DNA of 64,000 nt, from the NCBI GenBank assembly GCA_004431415.1, contig QPMI01000627.1, positions 151,077 through 215,076 of the forward strand, read 5' to 3'. Below, piece after piece: positions 38,801 to 63,587 of the stretch (position 1 is its first letter; every line of letters begins with the position of its first letter). The notes beneath the pieces were generated by a model, which saw only the letters and a list, made by a program, of their open reading frames with translations, was not told the DNA's origin and did not search any database. A program made the translations under genes and the position numbers. This DNA is from Cyanophora paradoxa CCMP329 (Eukaryota; Plantae; Glaucophyta).

Positions 38801-39658
38801 GCTCGCAGGGTGGTCACCCCCACCAATTGCGCGACCTTCCCGCGACCATTTTCAATAAGCACATTTTCAGCATCACGAATCTCAGTCACAAAATCACAAA
38901 TTCGCACTGAGCCACATTGTATTTTTCAAACATCTAACCCTTCCTTACTGAAACCAATCACGAAACCCTTTCATTCTTCATTTTTCTAATTCCTTACCAT
39001 TCCCAGTAAGCCCTTTAACTTTCCCCCGATCTCTCAGTAAGGACAGTAAGACCCTCATTTTTACGAAATGTTCCCGATCGTTTCCGGACTGTTTTCAGTT
39101 ACCCAAATTGAAAAATCAAGGTGAGCCCCACCAATTAAACAAGTGATCCCCACTTAAAGACTTCCAGTTAATATACTGTAACAATGGCAAGCAATCAAGT
39201 AAATCTACCTGAGACTAAGCGGTGCAATGTTTGCGATAAGGTAAAACCGGCATCGAGTTATGCATTGCAAAAGCGTAGCTCAGGGAATGTACTTTTGAAT
39301 TGGAGGTGCAAAGTTTGCGACCGAGACTATCACAATTACCTTTATCATTTCGTGTTAAAAACGCGTCCGAAGATCGAAGTACAATCGAAGATATGCTCGC
39401 ACTGCAAGATTGAGAAGCTTGCAAGTGAGTTTAATAAAAGACAAAGAACGAAGGATGGTCTCAACTATCAATGCCGAGAGTGTTATAGCAAAACTCGTAA
39501 GAGTTAAACCGAATTTCATTTTATATTTTTTAAAGCGAGTATGTGCATGAGCAAGCATGCCGAAAATGCCCACCTGCACAAACTCGCGACTTCAATCGAA
39601 ATGTTCCATTTAATGCACTGGAACCACTCGCGCCCCGCCCACTATGCAAGATACATGC
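38801..39658 (+). repeat. Left terminal inverted repeat
   Basis: Starts GCTCGCAGGGTGGTCAC; reverse complement of 62729-63587 except three 1-nt homopolymer differences and one 4-nt indel. Confidence 0.97.
39184..39507 (+). CDS. TIR-encoded double zinc-finger (CxxC...CxxC x2) protein
   Basis: KRCNVCDKVK...WRCKVC and KICSHCKIEK...DGLNYQCREC, a Zn-ribbon repeat typical of viral HNH-associated domains. Confidence 0.75.
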   Translation: MASNQVNLPETKRCNVCDKVKPASSYALQKRSSGNVLLNWRCKVCDRDYHNYLYHFVLKTRPKIEVQSKICSHCKIEKLASEFNKRQRTKDGLNYQCRECYSKTRKS

Positions 39659-39781
39659 CTTTCTTATGCATGATCTATGAAAAATAACAATAAACCCAGT
39701 CGTCAGACAAGCTGCCTTGGCTGCGCCTCTCTCATTCTTCGAATTCTTTACATAGGAGCACTCACAGGAATTTCGCTTGCC

Positions 39782-41114
39782 TTATATTATTTTAACGATT
39801 ACCAAAACCTGTGTGTCAGATAACACCTTGATCACCTTCCCCACAGATATTTTATATTGTTCAAATGAAGGATTCGATACAGCATTTACAGCAATACTGT
39901 CATTCTCACCTTGAACAGGAATAATATAATCACCAGGGTTTGCCCCTGATATATTAACAGGAACCTGACCACAGAATGCAATACGATCTACCTTCTGTCT
40001 CTCAGTTTCCAGTTTCTGTTCATATATTGCTTTGGCTGTTTCGTATTCTTGTTTTTGTGTTTCTGTTGGGTTTTCAGGTAATTCAGGTCTTTCTCCTACA
40101 ATACTTTTGGGTGCCCAATCGTCACCTCCCACGAAAGATGGGTTCGTTGATTTGACCGCAAACATTATAGTGGAATTAAATGAAAGCGTTAACTTTCCAT
40201 TTTGATTAATTCCGCAAACTTGCCCTTTTGCTATGACATCCGTTATGTTTTCTTTTGCCATATATTCAGCATAATCAGTTCCTCCTACATTTACAGTTCC
40301 TGCGGTGTTAATAGATCTTCCAGTTGCGAATTTAGCAACATATAGTATAGCTCCTATTCCGCCCCAACCATTATTTAAATACTGTGTTGTATCAGAATAG
40401 AAGCCACCTAAATCGTTTCCACTCGAGCTGTAACACCACATGACTCCACTGTTAGTCCCTGTCTGTTTCACAATGAGCCCACCAGTCGTCGGTGGAGACG
40501 TATTGATACCAACAGTTCCACTGTTAACCTGGATACCATTTGCTGTGATTGTTGAAATTGTTGTCCCATTGCGTTTTAATGCTAAATCAGAAGCCGCCCC
40601 AGTATCAATCGTCGTTGTTTTTACACCACCAGTAGCTGTGAGAAGCCCAGTAAATCCACCAGTAGATGAAAATGTAGCTGTGGTTCCACTAACACCACCA
40701 TTTGCTGTGAGTAATCCAGTAAATGAGCCTGTCCCACTTACTGTCGCATTCCCATTCACCCCAAGCCAGTCCCAATCCATGCCCCGCCACTGTAAACTTG
40801 GAAAGCCGCCGAATTCCTATCAGCCGGATTAAAAGCCGTTTTGGAATCCTGTTGACCTTCATATAGATTTTCTTTGGTGACCAGCCCGAAGATATTGCGG
40901 GTCGATTCGATACGATCATTTGAGTAGCTTTAACGAGTCCATCAATCTTGTCAGCTCTGAGTTCTTTGACTCTGAGTATGCTTTGGTCATTAAAAGAATC
41001 GGTTTTCGCTGTCTCAGTCGAAGGGTGGCTCGGAGATAAATCATAGACTGTGTGTTGGACATTATGGACAGCACTGGCTGATAAGGAAAACACAGGTGTG
41101 AATACAGTCGACAT
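39782..41114 (-). CDS. Fibre/tailspike protein with C-terminal intramolecular chaperone (Peptidase G2-like); ~444 aa after correcting two frameshifts
   Basis: Gly/Thr-rich beta repeats (TGLLTANGG/TGLLTATGG), then GTDYAEYM..GQVCGI..STNPSFVGGDDW..RIAFCGQVPV..GDYIIP. A bridging frame ESTRNIF...SAAFQVYSGGAWIGTGLG links ORFs 40689-41114 and 39782-40780. Confidence 0.75.
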
Positions 41115-41135
41115 CTTTTGATTGTTCTTTACTTA

Positions 41136-42598
41136 TTATGTGAGAATATTATTGTTTTGGAGAGGTCCAACAGCAATCCAATGGAGTTTAAGGGTGCGAT
41201 TTGCTGCTGTGACATTTGTGAAATTAGTCGATGCGAAAGCTGTGAATCTTACGATCCAGGTAAACTTAGTTTTTAAACCCACACGAGTATTATTAACATA
41301 CTCAGGTCCGATATATACACAGTTGGTCATGTCCCAATTTACAGAGTTGAAGCTATTCTCGATAGATGTAGTAATCACTGCATCACTATAAAATGGGGTA
41401 GAGAATACGACCGTTCCCGATAATTGAAAGGTTTCTCCTGCTATGTATTCTCGATTGTCCAGGACTACATTCGCTGTCCCTGTTGCACATATGCATTTGC
41501 ATTTACATAACTACCGAAATTCGTGAGCAACTCTATGCTGTGATTGTGAGTGGGTGGCGAAGTAGGTGTGTTAATCAGATCATCATAATTTCCACTTGTA
41601 GCCACAGCATGCAAGTTGGGTGTATTAACGAGATCATTATAGTCTCCACTTGTAGCCACAGCATGCAAGGTAGGGGCAACAGGTGTGTTAGTTAGGTCAT
41701 TGTAGTCACCACTTGTGGCAACAGCATGCAAATTCGGCTTAGTAAATAACCTATCCCATGTCCCATTGAAAGGAAGTGTAGATTCTGATATAATTACACC
41801 TTGATCGATCCAACGAGGTATATAGCTTGTGAAATCGGGAGTTCCTACTAAATCATAGTAATTTCCTGTGTATGCTACACCACTCCAAGTCGGCTTCTGA
41901 ATGATATCACTCCACTTCCCACTAAAACCCGCCGGCACATCTGTAAGCTCCTTATAGCTCACCTTTTGCTTTGGTATAGACAGCTCAATTGGTGAGAATG
42001 CACCCGAAAGGCGATTTTCAGAGGTGAAATACATGAGACTTTGACTGTTAGGGAACTCATCCACGAGATTAAAGGTGAAATTCGTGGGCAATTCGAGTCG
42101 ACTAATTGGGGTGTTGTCGCCTAATATAAATTCGGCGCCTGTATGCACGACCGGGTTTCTTTGGATATACATATTGGATGCACCTATTACAGGTGCCACA
42201 ATGGGCACATCTGAACATACAAGGTTGCAAGTGATGGAGAAAATGGTTTTAGGGGCGAATAGATTGCAATCAAAGGTCACAGTAGCTGGATCAATAGTAG
42301 GATCGACATTTGAACAGATCTGAAACATCCACCCTCCCACACAGTTGCAATTTAGATTTCGAAAGGCTGTTCCTGCCATTGCATCCACATAGCCTATCCC
42401 ATTTGCTATGTCATATATGTGACCAAACTCGTAACCAAAAATGTCATTCCACAGGTTAGAAGCCATAGCTCCCATCACATACCCTTTTAGATCTACTATC
42501 AGGTCATTGGATTCACTGGGTATATTGGCATGGGTTATATAAAATTGATTATCCAAGACAGCATTCTTTATTGTCGTTTCTACTATGGGTTCAGTCAT
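41136..42598 (-). CDS. Fibre-like protein with LHAVATSGxYxDL repeats; ~487 aa after correcting one frameshift at ~41486
   Basis: Three LHAVATSG(D/N)Y(N/D)DL phage tail-fibre-type repeats; the alternative frame ATGTANVVLD...FSTPFYSDAVITTS joins ORF 41136-41378, which ends LHWIAVG. Confidence 0.7.
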
Positions 42599-42635: not shown

Positions 42636-45600
42636 TTACATAACGTTTGGAACATGTTCATATATTCTCCCTTCTCGCTGTGCCATTTCCGCCATAAAGT
42701 CTCTGTCATTATTCATCGTTTGCTCTGCCAATTCTTGTGCTCGTGATTTTTTGGGTGCTGCCCTATTTGCTGGTGGTCGGTCAGTCCTCACTACACTAAG
42801 ACCATGCCCCTCGGCTGATCTCACCTCTAACCCCACATCTCCTTCGGCTGTTTGGGTCACATTAAGCTCTGGTGTTGAGTATTTATTACCTGCTCCTGCA
42901 ATGGTTCTGTCTATGCATGCACAACACAAAGCTCGGAATTTGTATGCAAGCACAAGCCCAAGAGCACCAAGAATAGGCAAGAGAATCATAAGCACTAACG
43001 TTCCTGGATCAGTTCCCGGTGCTCCGACTGGATTAGTAGGATTTGTGGGATTATTAGGTGTCGTGTTTGGATCTGGATCAGTTGTAGGGGGATCTTTTGA
43101 ATCGGGATCTGGGTTAGGCTGGTTCGGATTGGGATCGTTTGGTGGCGGCTCTGTCGACCCTGCTAATGATGTCGGCGCTGTGTATGCATTTGCAAACACG
43201 ATGGGAGCCGTCGCTGGATTTCCTGTGGAGGATCCTGAGATTGCACCATAGGTATCTGCGAGATACTTGTATAATTCCTGTGTCACAGGTGGATTGCTCA
43301 CAGATCGACACACCCAAATATTGCATGTGGTATCATATACTGTATCCCTGATAAAAGGCGGTAGAGCCGTCCCACTGAATGACTCAAAGAGTCCATTTCG
43401 CGAAAGCAACCTATGGGCTGTATCACAATTTCCACCCTCAAAATATTTGGTAGCCGAAATCGCACCTTGCACATAAATATTGCATGTGGAGTGCAATCCA
43501 ATGTTATTTAGGTTAGGAGTGTATCTGTCATCGAGCCTTACAGTGCAAACCCATGGGGAAGCGGTTTTTATATATTTCTTATCGCCTGCTGTGATCACAT
43601 CTGTGTTTGGGTGGCTTTCGATTTGGGTAGCAATAGACTCATATTTGTAAGAGTAATAAACTAAGAGCCCATCTGTGGAGGATGTAAAATAAAAGAAGTC
43701 TCTCATGAAGTCTGTGGATCCAAAGAAGTCAGCATTGGTCGATGTTAGGGTGACTTTGGGATAGCTCATGCTGACAGTCTCAGAAGGATATGGAATATAA
43801 GAGGTGTAATAGCGATTTAACAGATAATAGTAAAATCCATCTGAGACATTCGAATGAGTGGGCAAGGTGACTGTTAAGGTCTTACTGCGATCCTCAAACG
43901 TTTTATGTATGACAATATTGCAAGTATTAATGTATCGAGAATCGAAAAAGTAATTATTCGTTACTCGATTATCGATCAGAGTCGCATTGGTTCCATTAAA
44001 TACGAAATTCTGCCCATTAATTCTCGTAGTATGAATGTCGGTAACATCGAGAGGATACCTTATTTTTAATCGGTCTTCGGGGTCAAATCGCGGAATAGTT
44101 CCTGTTGCCTTCCAACTCACAGTGAAGGGAGGAGAAAGGGAAACTGCTGGGATAACAGAGAGATTAAATTTCGCAAAATACAACCCAATAGGATACCCTG
44201 ATAAAGCATATGTCACTGTTGCATTTCCTACAAGTGTAAAGCCGGTGGTTGTTATGTTAGTTGCAACAAATGGGGAGTAGCCAGCGGGTGCATTTTGAAG
44301 AGAGGTAGATGAGCCATCATTGACCACATACAGATTCGGGTCTGTAATTTCAATGGTAGGAGGGGAGACAAATGGAGACTCAAATGTGAAATTAAAACTC
44401 GCTGGAACCCCTGCAAGATATCTATATGAGACCGATCCTATTTCGGATGCCTGGAATACTTTGCTTCCACTCCGCACTACATTACTTGTGTCTTTCACAT
44501 TGTGGTATGATATGCTGGGAGTCGGGGAGAGCACCAACGAAATAGCATCTGGTAAATCAGACTTTGTTATATACAGCTCTTTAAGATACTCCTTTCTAAA
44601 AGGCGCGGTCAGATCTCCAATAGTAGCCGATGAACCTGCGACTACAATATTACAGGTGTTTGCACTCAAAGAATAAACTGTGTTCCACCTTAAAGAGTTC
44701 GCGCCAAGATCGAAACTCTGTGAGAAGGGCACGATATTGCTACCTTGTAAATCTCGGTAAACCTTTACTCTGGGTTCGCTATCGAATTCAGGGGTGATAT
44801 AATTGATGGTAAGAGTGAAACTAATAGTAGCTTCGGAAGTCAATAAGTTGTTTCGGATGATAAGTAAATTGTATGTCTCGTTAATGACAAACGAAACCTG
44901 AAACCCTGTGGAGGTGACATTTTGAATAAATGCTTTATTCGATTCATTATTGTTAGTGATAGGATTATAATAAGTAGTGTGATCCACCAATGAAACAGTG
45001 GGTATAGTCGTCTCGAAACCTGTGACACCCAACTGATCCCAAGTGAATGTATATGTAGGTTTGCCTACATAAGCGACATAGACCCCATTCGCGATCTGCT
45101 GAGGGTATCCCTCGACAGTGTAGGTCTCAGTTCGCGAAACTGATCGGGAAAGGTTACTATTAAAGTCAGTGTAGCTGATCAGTGCATTATCACTGGTGAG
45201 AATCTGATTGGGTCGGAGTGAGTGATTAAATGGAAGGATTAAATTGGAGGCAAACATGGAAACTCCATGCAACTCTGACCATCTCAGATTCGAGAGACCA
45301 ATTCGGTATGCATTATCAATAGAAGGGTATATGTTCCTTTTCGACAGAATATGGGCTAAGGTAATTGCAAGCGCTCCATCTGCTGCAAACAGAGCATTAA
45401 TTTCTGATTGCAAAGCGGCGATTTCGGTAGTGTGGGTCGTGAGGGTTCCATCCTGGCTGGAATCTTTGGTGTTCTTGCTCCTCTCGAACTCCAAAAACGC
45501 CTTTACGATGTCCTTGCCTAAAAGATCGTTTATATTGTCTCTGGTAATGTGAACATGGTCTGTTCTCAGTGCCTGTTTCTCTGTGGTAAAAGCCGGAATT

Positions 45601-46361
45601 TCCTCCGCAAATGATATAGTCGTTTTATCAAGTGCTAAGGATCTCACATTCGGAGCATTTGCGCCGATAATATCCACAACGTTCCCATTTTCGACAATTT
45701 CTAAGGTCGGTTTCGCGGGGTCTAATGTGAAAACGCCCTCTGTTATCTGGGGAACCGATTCGCTCTTCTGAATCACAAAGGATTCGATGTTTAGGTTACA
45801 GGTTGCGACATTGGTGGCGAAAAACGACTCGGAGTTAAGCGAGTTTACGTTAAGAGTATTTGTAGATATGTTACTTGCTGTAATATTACTCGTCGTTAGA
45901 TTACCTGCTGAGAGATCATGGACGACCTCTACCTTTGTTTTCCGTGTGGATACTCCCGCTATAAGTGTGCTATTATCCACGATTCTCATAGCTGCATTTT
46001 GGAAACCGCTCTCATCTTGAATGAAGAAGTTTAAGCGACCTCTATCGAATGCTTTTGGGATGTTCCTACGATTATATCGCACCGTTTTCGGTAGCTGGCG
46101 GGTTGCCTGAATGCTGGCGACTCTGTTTCGTTCGTTATCATCAAGTAAAAAGTCGATTCCAAGTTTATGATCCCCTTTCTCGACGTTCATTAACTGCAAA
46201 GCTGCGGGTCTGCTCGGTGTTCCACTGACTGGATCTTCGCGGTCTGCATTGAAGTTTATTCTCAGAGACCCGCGAATTTCGGTGTTTACCTGATCAGTGT
46301 CCTCTATCTGAGTGGTCGAATTAATAACTCGTGCGTCTGGTCGCGGATTCAGGAACGACAT
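42636..46361 (-). CDS. ~1241-aa fibre/adhesin-like protein with Pro/Asn/Thr linker, C-terminal TM helix and Cys cluster
   Basis: Likely start MSFLNPRPD at 46361, which avoids overlap with the patatin gene. Fibre motifs NIYPSIDNAYRIGLSNLRW and NIVPFSQSFDLGANSLRW; five TCN(I/L) repeats; TM LVLMILLPILGALGLVLAY followed by KFRALCCAC. Confidence 0.7.
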   Translation of the reverse strand: MSFLNPRPDARVINSTTQIEDTDQVNTEIRGSLRINFNADREDPVSGTPSRPAALQLMNVEKGDHKLGIDFLLDDNERNRVASIQATRQLPKTVRYNRRNIPKAFDRGRLNFFIQDESGFQNAAMRIVDNSTLIAGVSTRKTKVEVVHDLSAGNLTTSNITASNISTNTLNVNSLNSESFFATNVATCNLNIESFVIQKSESVPQITEGVFTLDPAKPTLEIVENGNVVDIIGANAPNVRSLALDKTTISFAEEIPAFTTEKQALRTDHVHITRDNINDLLGKDIVKAFLEFERSKNTKDSSQDGTLTTHTTEIAALQSEINALFAADGALAITLAHILSKRNIYPSIDNAYRIGLSNLRWSELHGVSMFASNLILPFNHSLRPNQILTSDNALISYTDFNSNLSRSVSRTETYTVEGYPQQIANGVYVAYVGKPTYTFTWDQLGVTGFETTIPTVSLVDHTTYYNPITNNNESNKAFIQNVTSTGFQVSFVINETYNLLIIRNNLLTSEATISFTLTINYITPEFDSEPRVKVYRDLQGSNIVPFSQSFDLGANSLRWNTVYSLSANTCNIVVAGSSATIGDLTAPFRKEYLKELYITKSDLPDAISLVLSPTPSISYHNVKDTSNVVRSGSKVFQASEIGSVSYRYLAGVPASFNFTFESPFVSPPTIEITDPNLYVVNDGSSTSLQNAPAGYSPFVATNITTTGFTLVGNATVTYALSGYPIGLYFAKFNLSVIPAVSLSPPFTVSWKATGTIPRFDPEDRLKIRYPLDVTDIHTTRINGQNFVFNGTNATLIDNRVTNNYFFDSRYINTCNIVIHKTFEDRSKTLTVTLPTHSNVSDGFYYYLLNRYYTSYIPYPSETVSMSYPKVTLTSTNADFFGSTDFMRDFFYFTSSTDGLLVYYSYKYESIATQIESHPNTDVITAGDKKYIKTASPWVCTVRLDDRYTPNLNNIGLHSTCNIYVQGAISATKYFEGGNCDTAHRLLSRNGLFESFSGTALPPFIRDTVYDTTCNIWVCRSVSNPPVTQELYKYLADTYGAISGSSTGNPATAPIVFANAYTAPTSLAGSTEPPPNDPNPNQPNPDPDSKDPPTTDPDPNTTPNNPTNPTNPVGAPGTDPGTLVLMILLPILGALGLVLAYKFRALCCACIDRTIAGAGNKYSTPELNVTQTAEGDVGLEVRSAEGHGLSVVRTDRPPANRAAPKKSRAQELAEQTMNNDRDFMAEMAQREGRIYEHVPNVM

Positions 46362-46404: not shown

Positions 46405-47898
46405 ATGAAGACCGTTCTCGCTTTGAGTGGTGGAGGGTCGCGCGGAATAATCGAGGCTGCTATACTGGCACAGATTGAAGCCCAAACCGGTAAACGAATC
46501 CAACAGCTATTCGACTGCTTTGCGGGAACATCCACAGGTGGATTAATCGCGCTCCTATTGAATATCAAGGGAACCGATGGCGCCCCTAAATATACTGCTA
46601 CTGATATTCTGGCGCTCTACAAAGCAAAGCTACCGCTGATTTTCGCGAATCCACGAGTGCTTACATCGATAGTGCAACGCCCAAAGTATGAAGCCACGAA
46701 TTTAGAAGCTGTGGCTCTGGAACTCTGCGGCTCAGCGACCATGGCGGATCTCTATAAACCCACCATCGTGACTGCGTTCGACACGGTTCAAATGTCCCCC
46801 GTTTTTATTTCAAGCAACGACGAAGATATTAATGGGATGCTTGTGCGCGATGCTGCAAGGGCTACCTCGGCTGCTCCGACCTATTTCGAGCCGAAACAAG
46901 TCACAGTCGCCGGAAGAACATACTGTTTAATTGATGGTTGCATGAGTGGAAATAATTCGCCCGGGGTTTGCGGCTACACATTCGCCCGCACTTTATTCGG
47001 AAACTCTTGCGAGGAGGAGCTTATCGTGGTCTCGATTACGGCGGGTCACGTCCAAGACTTAGATAAAGCGACATCTGGATATTCTTATGACACTATGAAA
47101 AATTGGGGGATCGTGCAATGGATGCTAAGCGCCACAGGATCGCCAATTCTCAGCATGTTCTTAGAGTCGAGCGATCTGAACGCCCACGTAAAGCTGCTGG
47201 AACTTTTACCCAGAAACGATGATCAGAATTACGATCGCTACTATAAGCTGAGCGTTCCTTTACCGAAAGATAAAATGACCCTCGATACTATCACAACGAG
47301 TCACCTGCAATATTTGGAAACGGAAGCGCTCGCCTTTGTTTCCGCACAGCAAACGTATTTTAATGCGATGTATTCAGTGCTGACCATGAATATATCAGAG
47401 GGAGACGTTCCCATAATTAATCTGTCGGGTTGCACAGATACAAGTGCACCCCCGGAGTCTAACTGGGTGCCGCTCGATAATAGCGCCTTTATTGCGGAAT
47501 TCGGCACAGCCTCCAATGCCCGCTGGTCGAATGCCACGGGGTGGGTGGGATTCACAAACCCGCCGCAAGGTAGTAGGTCGGGAGGCAATTATTTACGCAT
47601 CGATTTTCCGCGTCTGTTTATGCTTTCCTCAATAAAAATGAAGCCAGCTGCGAATGGCAACTATATTAAAACGTTTGAGATCGATTACCAATTAACTCCG
47701 GGAGTTTCGGCACTTGTCACATACACAGAAGCCGGCGCGACGAGAGTGTTTACAAATGCAAATCAAATAGCCGGAAGTGCTGATCCCGACGAACATTTCT
47801 TAGCGAACCCGAGATCTGTGAGAACCCTCGTAATCTGGGTGCTCACGACGAACGTAGCTTCGGCATGCCGAATTGATTTCGAGGGCTACTATGTGTGA
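46405..47898 (+). CDS. Patatin-like phospholipase fused to a C-terminal F5/8 type C (discoidin) domain
   Basis: GGGSRG oxyanion loop, GTSTG nucleophile, ARATSAAPTYF and DGC. C-terminus YLRIDF..YIKTFEIDY..VFTNAN..FLANPRSVRTLVI..RIDFEG follows the FA58C pattern. Confidence 0.88.
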   Translation: MKTVLALSGGGSRGIIEAAILAQIEAQTGKRIQQLFDCFAGTSTGGLIALLLNIKGTDGAPKYTATDILALYKAKLPLIFANPRVLTSIVQRPKYEATNLEAVALELCGSATMADLYKPTIVTAFDTVQMSPVFISSNDEDINGMLVRDAARATSAAPTYFEPKQVTVAGRTYCLIDGCMSGNNSPGVCGYTFARTLFGNSCEEELIVVSITAGHVQDLDKATSGYSYDTMKNWGIVQWMLSATGSPILSMFLESSDLNAHVKLLELLPRNDDQNYDRYYKLSVPLPKDKMTLDTITTSHLQYLETEALAFVSAQQTYFNAMYSVLTMNISEGDVPIINLSGCTDTSAPPESNWVPLDNSAFIAEFGTASNARWSNATGWVGFTNPPQGSRSGGNYLRIDFPRLFMLSSIKMKPAANGNYIKTFEIDYQLTPGVSALVTYTEAGATRVFTNANQIAGSADPDEHFLANPRSVRTLVIWVLTTNVASACRIDFEGYYV

Positions 47899-53679: not shown

Positions 53680-54114
53680 ATGAATTTCATAACACAATGC
53701 ATTGAAATGTTTCATCTACATTTCATATCTCACTGTAAGTCCGGATGTTGCGACACAACCGTAGAGGTTGATATTACCGATGAAGACCATGGAGGTAGGC
53801 GCCTTTCTGTATATTCTAACCATAGCGACAATCACAACCACCCACGATCTCGATCGCCCTCGCCTGTGACCGCGGCTATGAGTTCCAATATCGAAACCGC
53901 TCAGATAGAGGACGTGCATGTAGAGCATATTAGAAGGCGCTCATGTCCTGAGTTTGTAGAAGGTCATTTGCGCGCTGACTCCCCTTATCCGATGTATAGA
54001 TTGGATCAAATGGCATTAGGCGACGATGAAAATGTAACGAACCCTTATGTTTATCCTCAGCAACCTTATGTATATCCTCAGCAACAAGAAAGAACCGTCT
54101 GGAACGGTTATTGA
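53680..54114 (+). CDS. Hypothetical protein with CKSGCC cluster and PYVYPQQ tandem repeat
   Basis: 144-aa ORF preceded by TATTTTCTC. Confidence 0.55.
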   Translation: MNFITQCIEMFHLHFISHCKSGCCDTTVEVDITDEDHGGRRLSVYSNHSDNHNHPRSRSPSPVTAAMSSNIETAQIEDVHVEHIRRRSCPEFVEGHLRADSPYPMYRLDQMALGDDENVTNPYVYPQQPYVYPQQQERTVWNGY

Positions 54115-54238
54115 GCGGTGAATTTCGGTGGCGCTTGTATCGAGCCAAGGGCAAAAATTGAAGGTTTCGGTAAAAGGTATTTAAGGGCAAGGGAAATAAT
54201 ACAGAGTGACAAAAAACTATTTTCTCCGGTTATAGTAA

Positions 54239-54652
54239 ATGGCGAAACCCAAGATTTCAAACCAAGAGGCGATGGCGGCACAGCAGGAAAAGCGCAGACC
54301 CGGGCGACCGAAAAAGGTGATTTCAGAAGAGGAGAAGGCGGAGAGATTAAGATTAAAACGCGAAAAAGACGCCGAGCGGCAGCGAAACAAGCATCAGAGA
54401 CAGAAACAGGAGCGATTAGCCGCCGGAGAGGCTACGATATTCACCCCGGAACAGCTACAAAAGATTGCAATTCGTAAACAGCAGCGATACCAAGACGATG
54501 AAGAGTATCGGGAGAAAATCCGAGAGAAGGCACGTGAATACCAACGAAGGAAAAGAGCGGAACGCAAGCTGAATCCGCCCGCTAAACCTCAGCCACAAAA
54601 GCCCGCTGGGAGACCCCGAAAGCATGTGGTCGAGAACGCGAAAAATTCGTAG
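54239..54652 (+). CDS. Small basic DNA-binding protein with two AT-hook-like motifs
   Basis: RRPGRPKK and AGRPRK flank an Arg/Lys/Glu helix; preceded by the TATTTTCTCCGGT motif. Confidence 0.7.
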   Translation: MAKPKISNQEAMAAQQEKRRPGRPKKVISEEEKAERLRLKREKDAERQRNKHQRQKQERLAAGEATIFTPEQLQKIAIRKQQRYQDDEEYREKIREKAREYQRRKRAERKLNPPAKPQPQKPAGRPRKHVVENAKNS

Positions 54653-54820: not shown

Positions 54821-57800
54821 ATGCCGCGCGCAACCAACAGAATCGCTAACAATGTTCGGGATGAAATTATCGGATACATTATGCAGGGATTGAGTCAGGA
54901 TTTGCTAACCGAAGAACAGGCGCATTGGGCGATGCACAACACAATGAATCGGAAGCCCAAGCTCCAAACGCTGATCGACATTCGGGACACTCTGAATGGA
55001 ATCATTAATCCCCGCGTTTTCCGCAGGGCAGAGCGGAAAGAGAAGCGCGCCGCTCGCACCCAAGTTAATATAGAAAAGCAAAAGCAAAAAGAACAAGAGG
55101 CGAAGCGTTTACAGCGCTTCGATCGCAAACGAGAACAGAAACGGGCGAAAGAAGCGAAACTCGAAGCGAAGCAGCAGAGAGGTAAACTAAAAGCGGTAGA
55201 GGATGCGATTAAACGCACTATTCTCGATCCAATCGCCGCATACGATCCGGAAACTCTCGCAACAATTACGTTCAAGCTATGGGGACCTGGATCCGGTGCT
55301 CGGTCGTCGGAGGTAATTGTTATTCCCGGAATTCCCGAATTAAATATACCAGACAGAACCTTTGTCACCTACCAGAATATAAGAGAGACAGTTTCGGTGA
55401 GGGTGTTGCGAAACTTTGCTCTGGCAAAAATCGATAGAGTGTATGGAATTCTCACCGCTCAAAATCGTTATTATTCGGAAGAGAGAGATTCAATCTTCGA
55501 TTTACTCGAAAACTACGATGAATTGAAGATTCGTCTGGGAACTTTCGGACAAGCATACGAGATGTTCTTCTTTAAGACACCACCAACCGAGGAACAGAAA
55601 AAACTACGCAAAGGTTTCGATGATTTTGGCGGCAGTGTCGATGATGCCTTTATAACTGTTCATGAGGTCGTGATCGATGGGACGAAGGTGTCGAAGATGA
55701 CGGAGCCGGTGCTATCCCTGGCAATCGCTATGAGTTCCTGGATGATGAGCTAATGGACAGTATGCGATGCACCGCGATTATGAGCAAATTCACAGACTAC
55801 ACATTAAATCCAAACGCGTCTGAGTTCGAAGATGTTATTGAGCTTCCCAAATCATCTACATCTAACGCTTGCGGATACGATATGATCATCTCCACATGGG
55901 GAGCGTCCATTAAGAAGTGTCAGGACGCGCCAAAACCGCGATATACTGACTTAACTATGTCCTACGACGGTCTCTATAAATTCTTTCACGGTCGCGAACG
56001 CACACCTGGCGACTCTCTGGCTCTCACCCTCCGCCATATCGAGAAATTCTGTAAGAGAATTCAGACAGGCTTCCGCGTCTTTGATGTCGACGGAAAGTTA
56101 ATACACAAATTCGCGGCGGAATCAATTAACAAAAACATCTTTCCCGCAATATTCACTTTATGATTCACAACAAGCACATCTATATATTCAACGATAACAT
56201 CAAGTCGCTCGAAATGCGCATGGCGAAGATGGAGGTCGAAGAGCTCGATAATCATGTTCCTAAGTCGACCTCTTCGTTAGCACTCTATAAAATTCCGACG
56301 TGTCTTACTCACGATATCTTCGCGCACACATCCAAGGATTTGTTAAAGATCACGCAACTTAAACTATCGCCCGACGAGCGCAGTTTCATCCGCATTCTTT
56401 ATACTGGGCGCGAAGGTCTGGAAGGTCTTCTATTTACGTTCCTGAAAATGCGATATGAGCCCGCTGTGAAGCTAACACCATCGAAACAGATCGACAGCAT
56501 CACATTCAAAGCCAATGGCTCGATGTTCTCTATCAAAGATCCACGCACAACAGACCACTTTATTGAGCAAGATTTCGAAACAGAGGAGTATTATAATAAG
56601 GTCTGTGAAATCGGGAAGGGATTCCGGGAGTCGCTTCTAAATGCGACGAATATCTCACATTACAGCCCGAACATGCGCGAAATTCTCACGCACTACAAGC
56701 GATCCGCACTAAGTGGCTTTTTCTATAAGCCGAACCCGAAAGCCACCTACACAGCTGTCGATATGGCGAAGTGCTACCCTTCGATACTGAAAGGCATGCA
56801 ATATCTTCCGAAATACAATGTGTTTGATGACTTCGTTCCCTTTAAAGCGGGAAGCGATATTCTCGAATACGCGATCTACTACGTGCGTGTCGTTGCGTTT
56901 GAGAGAGAGCAAGCGACTTTCGCCGACGATGAGGATGTAGATTATGATGCCGCCATGTCTCGCAAGATTGATGGAATCGAAATTATTCTGGATCGCGCAT
57001 TTTCCGTGAGTGGTCGCTGTTATAATTTCATGACAGGCTACACTCTCTCCATGCATTGGGCGGACGTAAAGGACAAGATAGAGATTATCGCGGTCGCGGA
57101 GCCTTCGCATTTGGTGCCCAATACGTCGATCGCTGAGATGCAAAAAGTGCTGTCAAGCGACATTCAAACCACAGATAAGAAGCATATTTTAGTGAAAGAG
57201 ATCGGAATGCTCGGCAAATTCCAAGACTCGCAAACATCCACGAAAATGTTCTACAACCGTGCCGAGGCTGAGAGGTTCGCCCAAGAATGCGGAGGAACAG
57301 TAGAGGTGTTTACTTTCAATCCTAAGAATTCGAAACGTGTCAAAACTCTTAGCGAATTCGAAGGTCACATCTATTTCGTTAAGATCAGCTCCCACCGCGA
57401 GCTCGTTAACGGATTCCTTCCTATCCACTTTCATATTTACGATCGCAACCGTGCTAATATGTTTGCGCAATACAAGCGCCTGACAGCGCGCGGGCACAAG
57501 GTTGCCGGGATCAGAACGGATTGCCTATATATCGAAGGTTCATGGACAAGTAAGAAAGAGTTCGACCGAAATGCGTTTGAGAACATGGGCAAATTCAGCT
57601 ATATTCCCGGGAAAAGATGCCCTGAGAATGCACTCCGCCCACCACGGGGTGTAACTCTCGAATTTCAGGATCCCGAGACACTCATTAACCGGTTCTCGCT
57701 GAGGGACGAATTTAATCCGGAGTGCTTTAATTGGGTTGCGGAGCTCCATAATCGTATGCTTGTCCTTGCTGACATGCCCGGAAGTGGAAAGTCGACCCTC

Positions 57801-59129
57801 GGTATTAATTGCTTTGCCTCTCAAAAGTCAAATTGCTTAGTCATTTGCCCCTATAACAAACAGTGCGCAGAGCTGAGGGACTCTCTCAAAGTCCGCGGAA
57901 TCGAGAATATTACCGTTCGTACTTTATATAATGTTCTCGGGATCCGTGTCTCAAATGATCAGACCTACGAAGAGGCTATGAGCGAAAAAGACCAGAGGGC
58001 GTTCGTCTCCGAGTTCAGTCACATTATGTTCGACGAGATATTCGCGTATTCCGTAAAAGATCTCGCTAAGATCAAGTCGTTTATCGATCGCTATCCGGAT
58101 ATCAAATATTTGGCTAATGGCGACACCTATCAAAATGAACCAATTAATGACGAGCTCTCGGTTTCTGATCGCAAGGGCTACTATAAGCGCGCGGTGCAGA
58201 GTATGTTCCCTAACGTTCTGAGTCTACGCAATAACAAGCGGCACAAGAAGGAGACAGACCGTGAATTAATTCGGGCGATTAAAGAGGATCTCTTCGAGAA
58301 CGGACTGGAAGCCGCACAGATTATCTCGAAATACGGGTTGCCGACAATTAATGATCTAAGCGCTATTCCCGACGGCTACTTTGGCATCGCTTACAGAAAC
58401 GAAATGACCTTAGCCTACAACAAACTGATGCACGATAGACGCAAAGTAAATATCCCAACCGTAGAGGTCAATGGCATCAAATTCTACAAGGGTTTGGAAG
58501 TCGTTTGCCGCAAGTATCTACGCATTTCGCGGTCTGAGGGCGAGTCTATAAACGCATACACGAATTACACCTATCGAATCACCAAAATCACAAAGCAAAT
58601 GGTCACATTAACGGACGTTTTCGATGGTGTCACGTTTGAGGTTCCGTGCGCGATGTTAGAACATTTTTCTCTCCCTTATGCAGGAACAGGTCATTCAACG
58701 CAAGGTCTCACACTTGATTCGGGCATTGTCATTTGTGAGGCTACGTTCCGCTATACCACTCGCGAATGGTTCTATACCGCGCTCACTCGTAACCGCGATC
58801 TGTCTACTGTGCTGATTTATACACCGATTCACAAGTTCCAAGGAAAGAGTGACTACATCGAGTATCTGAAAGGGAAGATCCGCGGTTACAAATGCCAGGA
58901 TCAGCGTGCCGGGCGCGATTTCGATGAGGCGGATTATATTACGCCGGAGTGGATATTAGAGCGCAAGAAGCAACAGAAGGGCGCCTGTGCGCTCTGTTCC
59001 CTTCCTATTCCGACTGAGCCACAAGATCCGAATTACAAGCTCGTCGTGGATCGCATAAACAACAGGCGCCCACATCTTAAAGACAATTGCCAGCTCGTGC
59101 ATCACGGGTGCAATTGCAGCAAAAAATAA
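54821..59129 (+). CDS. ~1436-aa replication protein: basic N-terminal region + divergent family-B polymerase + SF1 helicase + C-terminal Zn/HNH-like domain (two frameshifts)
   Basis: PolB motifs VDMAKCYPS (A), KHILVKEIGMLGK (B) and GIRTDCL (C). SF1 motifs DMPGSGKS, MFDEI, GDTYQN, GHSTQG and YTALTR. C-terminus CALC..VDRINN..H..NC..H..CN. ORFs 54821-55753, 55753-56163 and 56160-59129 join by +1 nt at ~55680 and ~56145. Confidence 0.85.
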
Positions 59130-59147: not shown

Positions 59148-60530
59148 ATGTCACGGATCGTTAGAAGGGTAGCGGGCGAGGAGACAGAGACCACCATACT
59201 ACCTATCGCGGTTCCTGAAACTGAGCAAGTCCCCCAAAAAATCACAAAACGCCAAGCAAAATCAAATTTATTAGGAGATGTTCCTTTTAGCATTGCTAAC
59301 CCGTCCTCGAAGATCGTGCGCCGCATGTATGACCCAAAGACAGGTTTTAAGAACCCATCGGCATTGTACGAAGAGCTGAGAAAAGAGGACAAGAGCCTCA
59401 CATTGAAAGAAGTGCAAGATGTCGCAGCGAAACAAGAATTTATGCAGATTAACAAGAAGCCCCCAGCACCGACCCAAACAGCTTTTATTCCCATCACAGC
59501 CCCGCCGTGGTGCTATCAAGCGGATCTCATCTTTTATCTCTCATATGGCAATTATAATTCCGGCTACATTGCAGTCCTTACTCTCATTGAGATGACAAGC
59601 CGAAAAGCATATGCCAAGAAGTTAAAGAATAAGGAGGGCGCAAGTGTTGCCGCCGCTTTTGCGGAGATGCTCACAGATCTCCCGGCTCCAATGGTTCGAT
59701 TAGAGACAGATAACGGTTCGGAATTCATCGCGAAGGAGTTTCAGGAGATCGTTAAAAATAACGGAATAGAACACCGCTTTAAACAGGTCGGAGATCACAC
59801 TTCGCTGGGAATAATGAATCGCTTTCATTTGACCCTAAAAACGATGATAAACAACTACTGTGTCGCTTATAACACTGTGCGATTTATGGACAAATTGGAC
59901 GACTTCGTTTTCAATTATAACAACACCATTCACAGAACCATAGGAATGAAACCCGCAGATGTTAAGCTTTCTGATATGGAGCGGATCAGAGCGGCTATAA
60001 TTTCAAAGAAGAACACAATCGTAAAGGATATATTCAGCGATTTTAAACCTGGTCTCCACGTCCGCCTGTTATTGCCGAGATCGAAATTCGATAAAGGGGC
60101 GACTCAAAGGTATAGCCGAGAGGTCTACAAAATTGCGGGAAGGAGAGGAAACGCGATAGAGGTGCAAGATGCAGCGGGGAACGTTATGCCGAAGCTGTTT
60201 AAGCCGCACGAATTGCAAATCATTACAGAGGTCGAAGCTGTGGTGGAACCATCAGGCAACGCTATTTTAGCGGCTGATGTAGAGGCAGCTTCGATCCGGC
60301 AGGTGCAAAAAGAAGGTATAGATGTTGCCGCAAGTGTTCCGAAAGGGGCTCTATTGGAAGATCGCGCAGAAAAGACGAAGAGGGCGCTTAGAGAGCTCGC
60401 CAAATTGACAATCGCGGGAACTGAGAAGCTCTCAGAGGTAAACAGTCAGAGGTGGTATAAATCATTCAAGAATCAGAGCGCAAGCTACACAGCCCCTACT
60501 ACGCGCATTCTTCGGTCATCTCGTTCATAA
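59148..60530 (+). CDS. Retroviral-like (rve) integrase, Polinton type, D-D(35)-N variant
   Basis: YQADL, ETDNGSEF, GIMNRFHLTLK, YNNTIHRTIGMKP and FKPGLHVR..FDKG..YSREVYKI; consistent with the 6-bp TSD. Confidence 0.92.
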   Translation: MSRIVRRVAGEETETTILPIAVPETEQVPQKITKRQAKSNLLGDVPFSIANPSSKIVRRMYDPKTGFKNPSALYEELRKEDKSLTLKEVQDVAAKQEFMQINKKPPAPTQTAFIPITAPPWCYQADLIFYLSYGNYNSGYIAVLTLIEMTSRKAYAKKLKNKEGASVAAAFAEMLTDLPAPMVRLETDNGSEFIAKEFQEIVKNNGIEHRFKQVGDHTSLGIMNRFHLTLKTMINNYCVAYNTVRFMDKLDDFVFNYNNTIHRTIGMKPADVKLSDMERIRAAIISKKNTIVKDIFSDFKPGLHVRLLLPRSKFDKGATQRYSREVYKIAGRRGNAIEVQDAAGNVMPKLFKPHELQIITEVEAVVEPSGNAILAADVEAASIRQVQKEGIDVAASVPKGALLEDRAEKTKRALRELAKLTIAGTEKLSEVNSQRWYKSFKNQSASYTAPTTRILRSSRS

Positions 60531-60569: not shown

Positions 60570-60884
60570 ATGGAGGGTGAAAAGCATTTCGTTGACATTC
60601 CGTATGATAAAAAAGACGTTGCGAAATCCCTCGGTGGAAAGTGGGATCGTGAGAATTCATGCTGGTATGTCACGAAGAAAGATCACCCCCTATGCTCTCA
60701 GTTCAAAACTCTAAGCTATGAGCAAGTGTATCAAAGAAACGTGAAGGTTTACCTCGATATTCCTTATGAATTTAAGGATCAAGCGAAGGCTGAGAGAGCC
60801 CGCTGGGATCCCGTCATGCGATGCTGGTATGTCATGGGTCTCGATCACCCGCTAATGGGCAAGTTTCCGATCAAGGAACATTAA
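60570..60884 (+). CDS. Tandem DUF5710-like domain protein
   Basis: Two repeats (F/Y)xDIPYxxKDxAKxxxxxWDxxxxCWYV. Confidence 0.8.
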   Translation: MEGEKHFVDIPYDKKDVAKSLGGKWDRENSCWYVTKKDHPLCSQFKTLSYEQVYQRNVKVYLDIPYEFKDQAKAERARWDPVMRCWYVMGLDHPLMGKFPIKEH

Positions 60885-60909
60885 ATGTATATGTCGCTTT
60901 TTTCATTTT

Positions 60910-61302
60910 TTATGAAATTGGGAACCTTTGCTCGACCTGTAAGTCCCACTTTCGAACTTTCAGCCTTTCTTGTATGAGTTCGTTAATGTCCCGTGCTATA
61001 CCCATTGTCTTCGCTTCGGCATTTGAGCCGCATGTAAAGATATCGATCGCTAATAGCCCCTGGTCGCTGTAAGAGTGAGCTGTCGCATGCGACTCATCTA
61101 ATAGAAAGCCAATCGCGAAACCGGGAGGGGAAATAGAGCCATCGAAAATGCATGTGTGCTGGTGCACGATGCGCATCTTGCGATCTGTTATATATTGCGA
61201 TAGGTTCGCTGTGATCCACTCGGCGCATGCCTCCGGGGACTCGGTGAACGGGTCGGTTATATAGTCCAGCATTACGTGGTAGCCGCGGTATCGGGAATCC
61301 AT
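60910..61302 (-). CDS. speD: Prokaryotic-type (class 1B) S-adenosylmethionine decarboxylase proenzyme
   Basis: GYHVMLD, PPGF..LLDESHATAHSY..LAIDIFTCG; the E-S autocleavage site, downstream His and FTCG Cys are conserved. Confidence 0.88.
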   Translation of the reverse strand: MDSRYRGYHVMLDYITDPFTESPEACAEWITANLSQYITDRKMRIVHQHTCIFDGSISPPGFAIGFLLDESHATAHSYSDQGLLAIDIFTCGSNAEAKTMGIARDINELIQERLKVRKWDLQVEQRFPIS

Positions 61303-61690
61303 TATTATTTAAGTCGATATTTTTGTGAGCTATGTGGTTTCGTAGCCGCCAAATCGCGCCCTTTGCGAATCAGACCGCGCCGCTTTGTAGTAGCGTAGAA
61401 CTACTCTATACGCGCACGGTTGCAAAGTATGACTAGTGGAGCCTCATGGGAACGCGCGCCGGCTCTCAGAATGTAGCGGACACCTCGATTTTCGGGCACT
61501 TGTGCCTATGGCGAATTTGCACTTCTTGCCACGGTTGAGTTAGCTAGTCAAACTAGCACCAACATGCCCGGAATCAAGTTGTGAGCACGTAGCAATTGAG
61601 AGCGCGCCGAGATCGGCTTCCTGTCCAAAGTTATGCGGGGAAAACGGAAGGGGGGGTCTCCGCGAAGTCGCGATCGCCGGTGTTATCGAG

Positions 61691-61734
61691 TCGGGACTCG
61701 GGACTCGGGACTCGGGGCTCGGGACTCGGGACTC
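61691..61734. repeat. (TCGGGAC)6 heptamer array
   Basis: Direct reading; one unit is TCGGGGC. Confidence 0.9.
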
Positions 61735-62123
61735 CAACTTTGCAACTTAAAATGCAACTGGCAAGTGTCATACTATGATAGTATAGGCTACCGCCGACCG
61801 CCGAGTTGGCTCAGCGGCTCACCGAGTCACTGGGAGTCAGAGGCTTAGAGCCCCGCGATCGCATTTTTAAAAACTATGCATTTTACACATTATTTTTTGA
61901 GCCTATGAAACTTATATGGACGTGCTAGCCTCGTTAAGACGGTCACGGCGCTATTTTCAGTTTTGCAGGGTGATGAGCTGGTGATGAGATACAAGCGTTT
62001 GACGATTTCCATCGAAAATCGGTGTTTTGGTATCCCCCTTTCGCTTTTCCCGTATGCCCCCTTTCGCCGATTGAATTGTGTGCGTTTTTGATTGGACACC
62101 GTAACCTGAGCACGCTTTATTAT

Positions 62124-62428
62124 AGCCAATCCTGATCCTGTCAGCCTGTCCTCAGCCAATCCCGATCCTGTCAGCCTGTCATCAGCCAATCCTGATCCTG
62201 TCAGCCTATACTATCAGCCGATACTATCACCCTGTCAGCCTATACTATCAGCCTGTCAGCCTATACTATCAGCCTGTCAGCCTATACTATCAGCCTGTCA
62301 GCCTATACTATCACCCTGTCAGCCTATACTATCACCCTGTCAGCCTATACTATCACCCTGTCAGCCTACTGTCAGTCTACTGTCAGCCTACTATCAGCCT
62401 ACTCTCAGCCTACTGTCAGCCTACTATC
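62124..62428. repeat. Graded tandem array (30-bp x3, 21-bp x~7, 11-bp x~6) built on a TCAGCC core
   Basis: Units AGCCAATCCTGATCCTGTCAGCCTGTCxTC, TGTCAGCCTATACTATCA(G/C)CC and TGTCAGCCTAC. Confidence 0.9.
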
Positions 62429-62728
62429 GATGATCTCTTATCACATTACGATCAGCCATAACAGCTAATTTATCACATTACGATCAGACAACGTAAAAAT
62501 ACTACGCTATCGCATGCTATATGTTTTCGGAATCGCCGCGATGTGATGACCCCGAATACGTCGGTGACGCCGGTATATATATGTATATGTCGCCATATGA
62601 GAAAAAAAACAAACAAAAAACAAAAAATTCGGTTGTGCGCTGGATCACACACACGGAGGTTCGGACATATATACGAAATATATACATGACTAAATCGTTA
62701 TTGTTTTCATAGAACTCGCATGTAGTTT

Positions 62729-63587
62729 GCATGTATCTTGCATAGTGGGCGGGGCGCGAGTGGTTCCAGTGCATTAAATGGAACATTTCGATTGAAGTCG
62801 CGAGTTTGTGCAGGTGGGCATTTTCGGCATGCTTGCTCATGCACATACTCGCTTTAAAAAATATAAAATGAAATTCGGTTTAACTCTTACGAGTTTTGCT
62901 ATAACACTCTCGGCATTGATAGTTGAGACCATCCTTCGTTCTTTGTCTTTTATTAAACTCACTTGCAAGCTTCTCAATCTTGCAGTGCGAGCATATCTTC
63001 GATTGTACTTCGATCTTCGGACGCGTTTTTAACACGAAATGATAAAGGTAATTGTGATAGTCTCGGTCGCAAACTTTGCACCTCCAATTCAAAAGTACAT
63101 TCCCTGAGCTACCTACGCTTTTGCAATGCATAACTCGATGCCGGTTTTACCTTATCGCAAACATTGCACCGCTTAGTCTCAGGTAGATTTACTTGATTGC
63201 TTGCCATTGTTACAGTATATTAACTGGAAGTCTTTAAGTGGGGATCACTTGTTTAATTGGTGGGCTCACCTTGATTTTTCAATTTGGGTAACTGAAAACA
63301 GTCCGGAAACGATCGGGAACATTTCGTAAAAATGAGGGTCTTACTGTCCTTACTGAGAGATCGGGGAAAGTTAAAGGGCTTACTGGGAATGGTAAGGAAT
63401 TAGAAAAATGAAGAATGAAAGGGTTTCGTGATTGGTTTCAGTAAGGAAGGGTTAGATGTTTGAAAAATACAATGTGGCTCAGTGCGAATTTGTGATTTTG
63501 TGACTGAGATTCGTGATGCTGAAAATGTGCTTATTGAAAATGGTCGCGGGAAGGTCGCGCAATTGGTGGGGTGACCACCCTGCGAGC
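62729..63587 (-). repeat. Right terminal inverted repeat
   Basis: Ends GTGACCACCCTGCGAGC, followed by TSD CCTCCT. Confidence 0.97.
62880..63207 (-). pseudogene. Right-TIR copy of the zinc-finger gene, frameshifted by a 4-nt insertion
   Basis: GCTACCTACG at ~63108-63117 versus GCTACG in the left-TIR complement. Confidence 0.85.

What the first reader, a model, noticed from the sequence alone, without database searches (positions are those of the whole stretch)
38801..63587. Complete, apparently near-intact endogenous Polinton-like virus with an unusual gene set
Seen: ~858-bp TIRs, 6-bp TSD CCTCCT, termini 5'-GCTCGC rather than the AGT-repeat ends of classical Polintons, and about 17 compact intronless genes. 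Established: MCP + penton + A32 ATPase + rve integrase defines Polinton/PLV elements. No adenain/Ulp1 maturation protease is recognisable, which fits a PLV rather than a classical Maverick. Inference: this may be a new lineage combining an rve integrase, a Pol-helicase-HNH fusion, two pentons, three fibres, a patatin-discoidin fusion and SpeD, and it may be able to reactivate.
Basis: partly seen in the sequence, partly recalled or inferred. Interest (0 to 1): 0.88.

Follow-up and report, generated by a model that had tools for sequence, protein, structure and literature searches.

The report
Endogenous polinton-like virus of glaucophyte alga
A whole 24.8-kb virus genome sits in the chromosome of what is very likely the alga Cyanophora paradoxa; it is real and its family is still conserved, but published surveys already list this polinton-like virus family and its gene mix, and it would likely need a giant helper virus to multiply.

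Summary
Real and correctly bounded: 24,787 bp, ~858-bp TIRs, TSD CCTCCT, 17 genes. The MCP folds as a double jelly-roll; a penton matches PBCV-1 P1; A32 ATPase, rve integrase, patatin, HNH-AP2 and SpeD are confirmed; no Ulp1 protease. The replicase is one gene (vOTU, pPolB palm, SF1 helicase, HNH), the architecture Krupovic described in 2016/2024, broken here by two frameshifts. These and three fibre-gene breaks are probably long-read homopolymer errors, since single-copy host DNA beside the element shows the same error. Public DNA runs hold tens of related copies; 60 of 73 coding differences examined are synonymous. It is not a new lineage: an MCP about 97% identical is printed in Bellas 2023 (Cyanophora paradoxa, unnamed 'new' clusters), and Bulzu 2025 tabulates rve (85), phospholipase (89) and SpeD (66) among 156 glaucophyte PLVs, and mentions discoidin-patatin fusions. 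Not found described: Asn at the integrase's third catalytic position (also in one unrelated metagenomic relative), a 13-nt upstream motif, and an HNH-AP2 gene missing from some copies. Helper dependence and present activity are untested. Interest modest.

The parts
38795..38800 (+). Left target-site duplication CCTCCT
   Evidence: sequence
38801..39658 (+). Left TIR, 858 bp, starts GCTCGC
   Evidence: contigs of runs X1, X5, X9 join host flank to the first 28 nt with 0 differences, short of the tool's 31-nt bridging rule
39184..39507 (+). 107-aa Cys-rich zinc-binding protein inside the TIR (right-TIR copy broken by the 4-nt indel)
   Evidence: PHROG 5558 E 5e-14 and endonuclease-VII-type zinc ribbons
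39782..41114 (-). Putative fibre 3; two frameshifts in the window (near 40884 and 40760)
   Evidence: PHROG 34132 (unknown function) E 1e-44; length differences in other copies at both places; fibre role inferred
41136..42598 (-). Putative fibre 2 with short tail-fibre-like repeats and a lectin-like end (by eye); one frameshift near 41477
   Evidence: 54-nt tandem repeat, PHROG 17509 E 2e-17; differences in the second frame mostly synonymous; no Pfam hit
42636..46361 (-). 1241-aa beta-rich protein with Pro-rich linker and a hydrophobic helix at residues ~1120-1140; fibre or membrane-anchored virion protein (inferred)
   Evidence: no Pfam or PHROG hit; hydropathy
46405..47898 (+). Patatin-like phospholipase (GGGxRG, GxSxG, DG motifs intact) with a discoidin-like C-terminal domain (by eye)
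   Evidence: PF01734 E 1e-21; motifs; C-terminus unmatched
47934..48779 (-). Penton paralogue A
   Evidence: 29% to penton B, E 1e-7; no PDB sequence hit of its own
48796..49722 (+). Penton (minor capsid protein) B
   Evidence: PBCV-1 P1, 6ncl_a6, E 4e-4; that P1 is the penton is recalled
49770..51083 (+). [quoted passage not shown]
   Evidence: model pLDDT 68, pTM 0.74; Foldseek to SGIV and PBCV-1 MCPs E 5e-18; near-identical MCP in Bellas 2023 Table S2
51156..51872 (+). HNH-AP2 homing-type endonuclease, absent from some copies
   Evidence: PF13392 and PF00847; joint 51092 to 51877 in X1 and X5, 51146 to 51834 in X9
51923..52789 (+). A32-like packaging ATPase
   Evidence: PF04665 E 2e-10
52792..53475 (+). 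227-aa protein, unknown
   Evidence: no hit above cut-off
53680..54114 (+). 144-aa protein, unknown
   Evidence: no hit
54218..54230 (+). 13-nt motif TATTTTCTCCGGT, copy 1 of 3 (others 54786-54798, 60544-60556), starting 21-35 nt upstream of a start codon; putative promoter
   Evidence: 3 exact copies, 0.05 expected, 0 of 100 shuffles reach 3
54239..54652 (+). 137-aa basic protein with AT-hook-like motifs
   Evidence: PF02178 E 0.005, below cut-off
54821..59129 (+). Replicase: N-terminal region, vOTU protease (Cys and His present), pPolB palm, SF1 helicase, HNH; two frameshifts in the window (near 55678 and 56142)
   Evidence: relative P0002 aligns across the 56145 frame change; motifs; PHROG Dda-like helicase and endonuclease VII
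59148..60530 (+). RVE integrase, D126-D188 with Asn224 at the third catalytic position
   Evidence: PF00665 E 4e-13; alignment to retroviral integrases
60570..60884 (+). Double DUF5710 protein
   Evidence: PF18974 E 5e-24
60910..61302 (-). Class 1b SpeD/AdoMetDC homologue with the E-S-H self-cleavage site
   Evidence: PF02675 E 2e-11; PDB proenzymes E 2e-4
61303..62728 (.). Non-coding spacer with 7-, 30-, 21- and 11-bp tandem arrays; partly deleted in some copies
   Evidence: joints
62729..63587 (-). Right TIR
   Evidence: contigs of X2, X5, X9 join its last 20 nt to the host flank
63588..63593 (+). Right target-site duplication CCTCCT
   Evidence: sequence

Best explanation
This is one integrated copy of a multicopy polinton-like virus family, very likely of the glaucophyte Cyanophora paradoxa, with a double jelly-roll capsid module, an RVE integrase and a Tlr1-type polymerase-helicase, which likely lies silent in the chromosome and would multiply only with a giant helper virus. 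Shown: the ends, the 6-bp duplication, the gene identities, many related copies and an excess of synonymous differences among them. Inferred steps: (1) the RVE integrase inserted a linear TIR-ended genome and left the 6-bp duplication; (2) the replicase copies the free linear genome by protein priming, the vOTU domain cutting the polyprotein and the SF1 helicase unwinding (from Krupovic 2024, predicted there too); (3) the A32 ATPase fills a capsid of MCP and two penton paralogues, with fibres and the patatin fusion for attachment and membrane entry; (4) the SpeD-like enzyme raises polyamine supply; (5) host CpG methylation keeps copies quiet. The five frameshifts in the window are most likely assembly errors. 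Odds: identity as a catalogued, selected PLV family about 0.9; helper-dependent rather than autonomous or purely transposing about 0.5.
For: Ends and TSD. DJR fold. Penton. Replicase motifs and frame-crossing alignment; same architecture in PMC5499653 and PMC11161782. MCP differs at 8 of the first 239 residues (counted by eye) from C. paradoxa gene_37737 in Bellas Table S2; relative P0008 is a named C. paradoxa protein. Core contigs are 21-52 times deeper than single-copy flank contigs in 4 of 4 DNA runs (a rough proxy). 60 of 73 coding differences synonymous, none a stop, 22% expected. All five breaks sit at runs of 3-4 identical bases, and two single-base gaps of the same kind occur in 433 nt of single-copy host flank in 3 of 3 DNA runs. 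For helper dependence: divergent start codons only 16 and 43 nt apart, TATAR within 25 nt of 8 of 17 starts against 6% by overall frequency; C. paradoxa carries methylated giant-virus insertions (PMC12344493); endogenous Tetraselmis PLVs are woken by a giant virus.
Against: No host gene was used to fix the species; it rests on the MCP match and GC content. No contig spans a junction by 31 nt on both sides (28 and 20 nt) and no empty site was seen. The differences tested are the 80 best-supported rows; 640 and 104 rows were hidden. Contigs drop rare variants, so a true lesion in this one copy cannot be excluded. Asn224 could make this copy's integrase inactive. The TATAR motif was chosen after looking and intergenic DNA is AT-rich; the MCP gene lacks it. 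The element has its own replicase, and a PLV with an S1H-pPolB gene was first isolated as a nuclear lytic virus, so helper dependence is not implied by gene content.
Confidence: 0.8

Rival explanations
1. An autonomous temperate nuclear virus that replicates and forms particles without a helper.
For: Complete replication, integration and morphogenesis modules, entry proteins and a metabolic gene; selection on fibre genes as well as core genes (25 of 30 synonymous).
Against: No transcription factor or RNA polymerase recognised; 16-nt gap between divergent starts leaves little room for host Pol II promoters (inference); most cultured PLVs cited in the papers read depend on giant viruses.
Confidence: 0.25
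2. A self-copying transposon-like element that spreads inside the genome; capsid genes are relics.
For: Tens of copies in one species, none of its capsid found in IMG/VR or JGI scans; copies with internal deletions.
Against: Fibre differences are mostly synonymous (25 of 30) and MCP, pentons and ATPase are open frames; relics would decay. The scans use exact short peptides and are insensitive.
Confidence: 0.15
3. This particular copy is dead or non-autonomous (real frameshifts, inactive D-D-N integrase) and depends on other copies or on the second PLV family in the genome.
For: Five breaks in three genes as written; Asn at the position of the catalytic Glu; 9 of 10 related integrases have Glu or Asp there.
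Against: The same single-base errors occur in unique host DNA next to the element; Asn also occurs in the 29%-identical integrase of L006; 7 of 9 listed integrase differences are synonymous.
Confidence: 0.2

Closest known systems
Cyanophora paradoxa endogenous PLVs (Bellas et al. 2023, PMC10120064, MCP clusters 16 and 24, both marked 'new'; Bulzu et al. 2025, PMC12220804, 156 glaucophyte PLVs)
   Same: MCP about 97% identical to a printed sequence; rve 85, tyrosine recombinase 0, protease 0, lipase/phospholipase 89, PF02675 66, HNH_3 40, helicase 34 of 156; discoidin-patatin fusion and a tail-repeat/H-lectin fibre named in the text.
   Different: Nothing essential. Whether this very locus is among the 156, and which of the two clusters it belongs to, could not be read; the passages seen do not discuss SpeD, the replicase architecture or the integrase triad for this family.
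Tlr1 of Tetrahymena and PLVs with pPolB-S1H replicases (Krupovic 2016 PMC5499653; 2024 PMC11161782)
   Same: MCP, penton, ATPase, RVE, no Ulp1 protease; vOTU-palm-S1H replicase without exonuclease, first Asp of motif C replaced; C-terminal HNH as in PLVs.
   Different: Tlr1 ends in GIY-YIG rather than HNH; the MCP lies in a different cluster from the one labelled Tlr in Bellas Table S4; extra penton, patatin and SpeD.
Classical Polintons/Mavericks (Polintoviricetes)
   Same: TIRs, 6-bp TSD, RVE integrase, DJR MCP, penton, A32 ATPase.
   Different: No full pPolB with exonuclease, no Ulp1/adenain protease, ends GCTCGC (the AG/AGT-type ends are recalled, not from a call), unrelated MCP cluster.
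Tetraselmis PLVs Tsv-S1/S2/S3 (bioRxiv 10.1101/2025.10.09.676808)
   Same: TIR-ended algal PLVs with fibre and FA58C (discoidin) proteins; S1 has the helicase-pPolB fusion; endogenous copies.
   Different: Shown to be reactivated by a giant virus; no such data here; no sequence comparison was run.

Membership tests
Polinton-like viruses | Double jelly-roll MCP | tested here: met
Polinton-like viruses | Single jelly-roll penton | tested here: met
   PBCV-1 P1 E 4e-4, paralogue E 1e-7; sequence only, not folded
Polinton-like viruses | A32-like packaging ATPase | tested here: met
Polinton-like viruses | 15-40 kb linear genome with TIRs | tested here: met
   24,787 bp
Polinton-like viruses | Virions | not testable with these tools
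   no particle or virome data; none found in viral contig scans
Tlr1-type pPolB-S1H PLVs | vOTU-palm-SF1 helicase-homing endonuclease in one gene | tested here: met
   by motifs and alignment, not folded; terminal-protein domain not identified
Tlr1-type pPolB-S1H PLVs | RVE integrase, no Ulp1 protease | tested here: met
   absence means no Pfam hit among the 20 ORFs scanned, four small ORFs stay unassigned
Cyanophora paradoxa PLVs (Bellas clusters 16/24) | MCP within the 25%-identity cluster | tested here: met
   about 97% to gene_37737 by eye; 38% to P0008, a named C. paradoxa protein
Classical Polinton/Maverick | Full pPolB with exonuclease domain | tested here: not met
   palm fused to helicase; vOTU directly upstream as in relatives; no PF03175 hit
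Classical Polinton/Maverick | Ulp1/adenain maturation protease | tested here: not met
Virophages (Virophaviricetes) | Virophage-type MCP and maturation protease | tested here: not met
   437-aa MCP; virophage MCPs rank 36-38; no protease
RVE (DDE) integrases | D-D-E catalytic triad | tested here: not met
   D126, D188, N224; fold family matches (PF00665), activity untested
Nucleocytoviricota-related PLVs (Zora, Zephyr; bioRxiv 10.64898/2026.06.19.733378) | MCP and ATPase phylogeny with NCLDV; Mriya48, HUH or VLTF genes | not tested
   no reference set on hand; no such genes recognised; best PDB fold hits are NCLDV MCPs, but few PLV structures are expected there

The most novel reading that the evidence does not exclude
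A glaucophyte virophage-like virus family of an unnamed capsid lineage that still integrates, with 6-bp duplications, using an RVE integrase whose third catalytic carboxylate is replaced by asparagine (a D-D-N enzyme shared with unrelated PLV replicase-integrase modules), and that supplies its own polyamine enzyme while parasitising an as yet unisolated glaucophyte giant virus.
Probability: 0.2. Interest if true: 0.6.

Novelty: already known. Interest (0 to 1): 0.3.

Why it matters
As a discovery it is small: the family and its gene mix are in the supplements of two surveys. What is added is a resolved anatomy. The replicase is of the Tlr1 type, the apparent decay is likely an assembly artefact, the family is under purifying selection, and the integrase has an unusual triad. 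C. paradoxa is a culturable model that also carries methylated giant-virus insertions (PMC12344493), so it is a tractable place to ask whether endogenous PLVs in the earliest-branching plastid lineages act as anti-giant-virus elements. An active D-D-N integrase would be of interest to integrase enzymology.

Tried and rejected
No whole genome is held for the window, so copies and empty sites could not be counted directly. Single-sequence fold of the MCP failed (pLDDT 33); a 7-sequence alignment worked. Pfam and PDB sequence searches do not see the MCP. Scans for MCP, ATPase and integrase relatives found nothing in viral contigs and for the MCP nothing in metagenome contigs; these use exact short peptides, so they do not show absence. 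None of 8 window proteins is in the cluster collection by exact sequence. The ESM Atlas and the VIA wide fold search gave no answer. No RNA holder listed; the few contigs of guessed-RNA runs X20 and X21 on the element are no evidence on expression. The joint 60567 to 55001, first noted as a rearrangement, is rejected: it comes from the shared upstream motif lying just outside the stretch laid. An endonuclease-like host frame across the insertion site (seen by eye) got no Pfam support. CCTCCT does not occur in Bulzu supplement 1, which does not show the locus is absent from that set. Literature searches for DUF5901 (0 papers), for a published match to the 13-nt motif and for Asn-substituted polinton integrases listed nothing relevant; only listings were seen. 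No tRNA. No earlier findings of this scan. No complex was predicted and no tree built (7 MCP sequences, no reference set).
Full report
Observation. The element runs from 38801 to 63587 (24,787 bp). Its TIRs (38801-39658, 62729-63587) align with no substitution, three single-base indels and one 4-nt indel. Both ends begin GCTCGC and CCTCCT flanks both. GC is 45% against 65% in host DNA. Seventeen compact genes cover 86% of it. Contigs from three DNA runs join the left flank to the first 28 nt of the TIR with no difference, and three join the last 20 nt to the right flank. Both fall short of the tool's 31-nt rule, so the junctions are supported but not proven by reads.

Capsid module. The 437-aa ORF at 49770 has no Pfam or PDB sequence hit and only 5 relatives at E up to 0.001 among 1.84 billion representatives. 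A model from a 7-sequence alignment (pLDDT 68, pTM 0.74) matches iridovirus and chlorovirus MCPs at E 5e-18 and viral MCP models in BFVD, so it is a double jelly-roll. ORF 48796 matches PBCV-1 P1 (E 4e-4; that P1 is the penton is recalled), and the divergent ORF 47934-48779 is its paralogue (E 1e-7). The A32 ATPase is clear. No Ulp1 protease was found among the 20 ORFs scanned. The three 'fibre' genes have no named hit; two match unnamed PHROGs, and the 1241-aa one ends in a hydrophobic helix. The discoidin domain on the patatin is visible only by eye.

Replicase. ORFs 54821, 55753 and 56160 are one gene. The 1297-aa relative P0002 aligns across the frame change at 56145. The vOTU Cys and His, polymerase motifs A-C (first Asp of motif C replaced), helicase Walker motifs and C-terminal HNH line up with the relatives. 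This is the architecture described for PLVs and Tlr1 in PMC5499653 (parts 1-3 of 5 read) and reinterpreted as an active pPolB-S1H in PMC11161782 (passages). The latter names Tlr1 as a PLV with RVE integrase and this replicase. So 'rve plus Pol-helicase-HNH' is a known combination. In 8 of 16 loci fetched with the replicase, an integrase follows it directly.

Are the breaks real? Five frameshifts lie in three genes, each at a run of 3-4 identical bases. At 55678 all contigs laid differ in length from the window; at 56142 all do in X2 and X9 and about three quarters of the depth in X5; the fibre breaks are matched in part of the depth. In 433 nt of single-copy host flank, contigs of 3 of 3 DNA runs show no substitution but two single-base gaps in the window, so the assembly has this error. 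Bellas 2023 reports the same artefact for such elements. Assembly error is the likeliest reading; contigs drop rare variants, so a true lesion is not excluded.

Family. Nineteen of 24 listed runs, all of one coded organism, hold 63-67% of the sampled words. Core contigs are 21-52 times deeper than flank contigs in 4 of 4 DNA runs, which points to tens of copies, though depth is a rough proxy. Of the 80 best-supported differences shown (744 more rows hidden), I dropped 6 non-coding and 1 duplicate; 60 of the remaining 73 are synonymous, none creates a stop, against 22% expected (replicase and integrase 33 of 41, fibres 25 of 30). The family has been under purifying selection, structural genes included. 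Some copies lack the HNH-AP2 gene.

What is already known. Bellas et al. 2023 (PMC10120064; passages, parts 2-3 of 7, search hits and parts 28-29 of supplement 2) print C. paradoxa MCPs in Table S2. Gene_37737 differs from ours at 8 of the first 239 residues, counted by eye. Table S4 gives 366 MCPs in that genome in clusters 16 and 24, both marked 'new' and without a group name. P0008 is a named C. paradoxa protein. The host is therefore very likely C. paradoxa; I did not test this with a host gene. Bulzu et al. 2025 (PMC12220804; passages and search hits in supplement 1) count, among 156 glaucophyte PLVs, rve 85, tyrosine recombinase 0, proteases 0, lipase/phospholipase 89, PF02675 66, HNH_3 40, S74 37 and helicase 34 (columns matched by hand, 67 to 67). 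Their text names discoidin fused to patatin and a tail-repeat/H-lectin fibre in these algae; it has no word on AdoMetDC. Class 1b SpeD genes are known from phages and algal giant viruses, some with changed substrate (PMC9992855, passages). I saw only the abstract of PMC12721341 and passages of PMC8502044 and bioRxiv 10.64898/2026.10.13.758929.

Details not found in print (searches; listings only for most). First, the integrase has Asn224 where retroviral integrases have the catalytic Glu. Among 10 related integrases the position is Glu in 6, Asp in 3 (two of them near-duplicates) and Asn in 1, so Asn is not unique to this copy, but I could not read it in the other copies. Second, a 13-nt motif occurs three times, each just upstream of a non-structural gene, where 0.05 copies are expected.

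How it most likely works. The integrase inserted a linear genome and left the 6-bp duplication (inferred). Copies are probably silenced: C. paradoxa methylates repeats and viral-origin genes and carries giant-virus insertions (PMC12344493, passages). When active, the replicase would copy the genome by protein priming, and the ATPase would fill a capsid bearing two penton types, fibres and a phospholipase for entry. I put helper dependence at about 0.5, from the very tight divergent gene starts (16 and 43 nt) and the Tetraselmis precedent (bioRxiv 10.1101/2025.10.09.676808, passages). Against it, the element has its own replicase and the TATAR signal was chosen after looking. Autonomous replication gets 0.25 and pure transposition 0.15.

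Verdict. A real, well-preserved endogenous PLV of a catalogued family with a tabulated gene set. It works like a Tlr1-type PLV and fails the membership tests for classical Polintons and for virophages proper. Novelty: already known, with undescribed details. Interest 0.3.

Noticed in passing
window 35714-38188: A separate ~2.5-kb element with ~280-bp imperfect terminal inverted repeats (94-96%), a (TA)41 tract and no recognised transposase, 600 bp left of the virus; its ends are very deep in the DNA runs. Probably a non-autonomous DNA transposon.
   Followed up: no
window 51092-51877: The HNH-AP2 gene is skipped by contigs in 3 of 3 DNA runs laid, and its own contig is about a quarter as deep as its neighbours: a mobile endonuclease present in only some copies.
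   Followed up: partly
L002, L003, L006, L007, L009, L010, L012, L015: In 8 of 16 loci found with the replicase, an RVE integrase follows it within about 450 nt, as in the window; none shows a match to the window's capsid genes, and L012 carries a capsid gene that looks polinton-like by eye. The replicase-integrase pair travels as a module.
   Followed up: partly
L006 464-1501: Integrase with Asn at the third catalytic position, 29% identical to the window's.
   Followed up: partly
window 38801 and 63571 (loose ends in runs X20, X21): Contigs carrying a related TIR end joined to other flanking DNA, i.e. further insertion sites; the X21 one also ends in GCGAGC.
   Followed up: no
window 38370-38800 and 63594-63709: The target site lies in what by eye resembles a decayed endonuclease-type reading frame (possibly a retroelement); no Pfam support.
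   Followed up: partly
window 13713-14194 and 23998-24470: Perfect tandem duplications of 241 and 204 nt in host DNA; may be assembly artefacts.
   Followed up: no
protein P0001: A 60-62% identical MCP on an unnamed 3.8-kb Logan contig: a distinct relative of this capsid lineage, source unknown.
   Followed up: no
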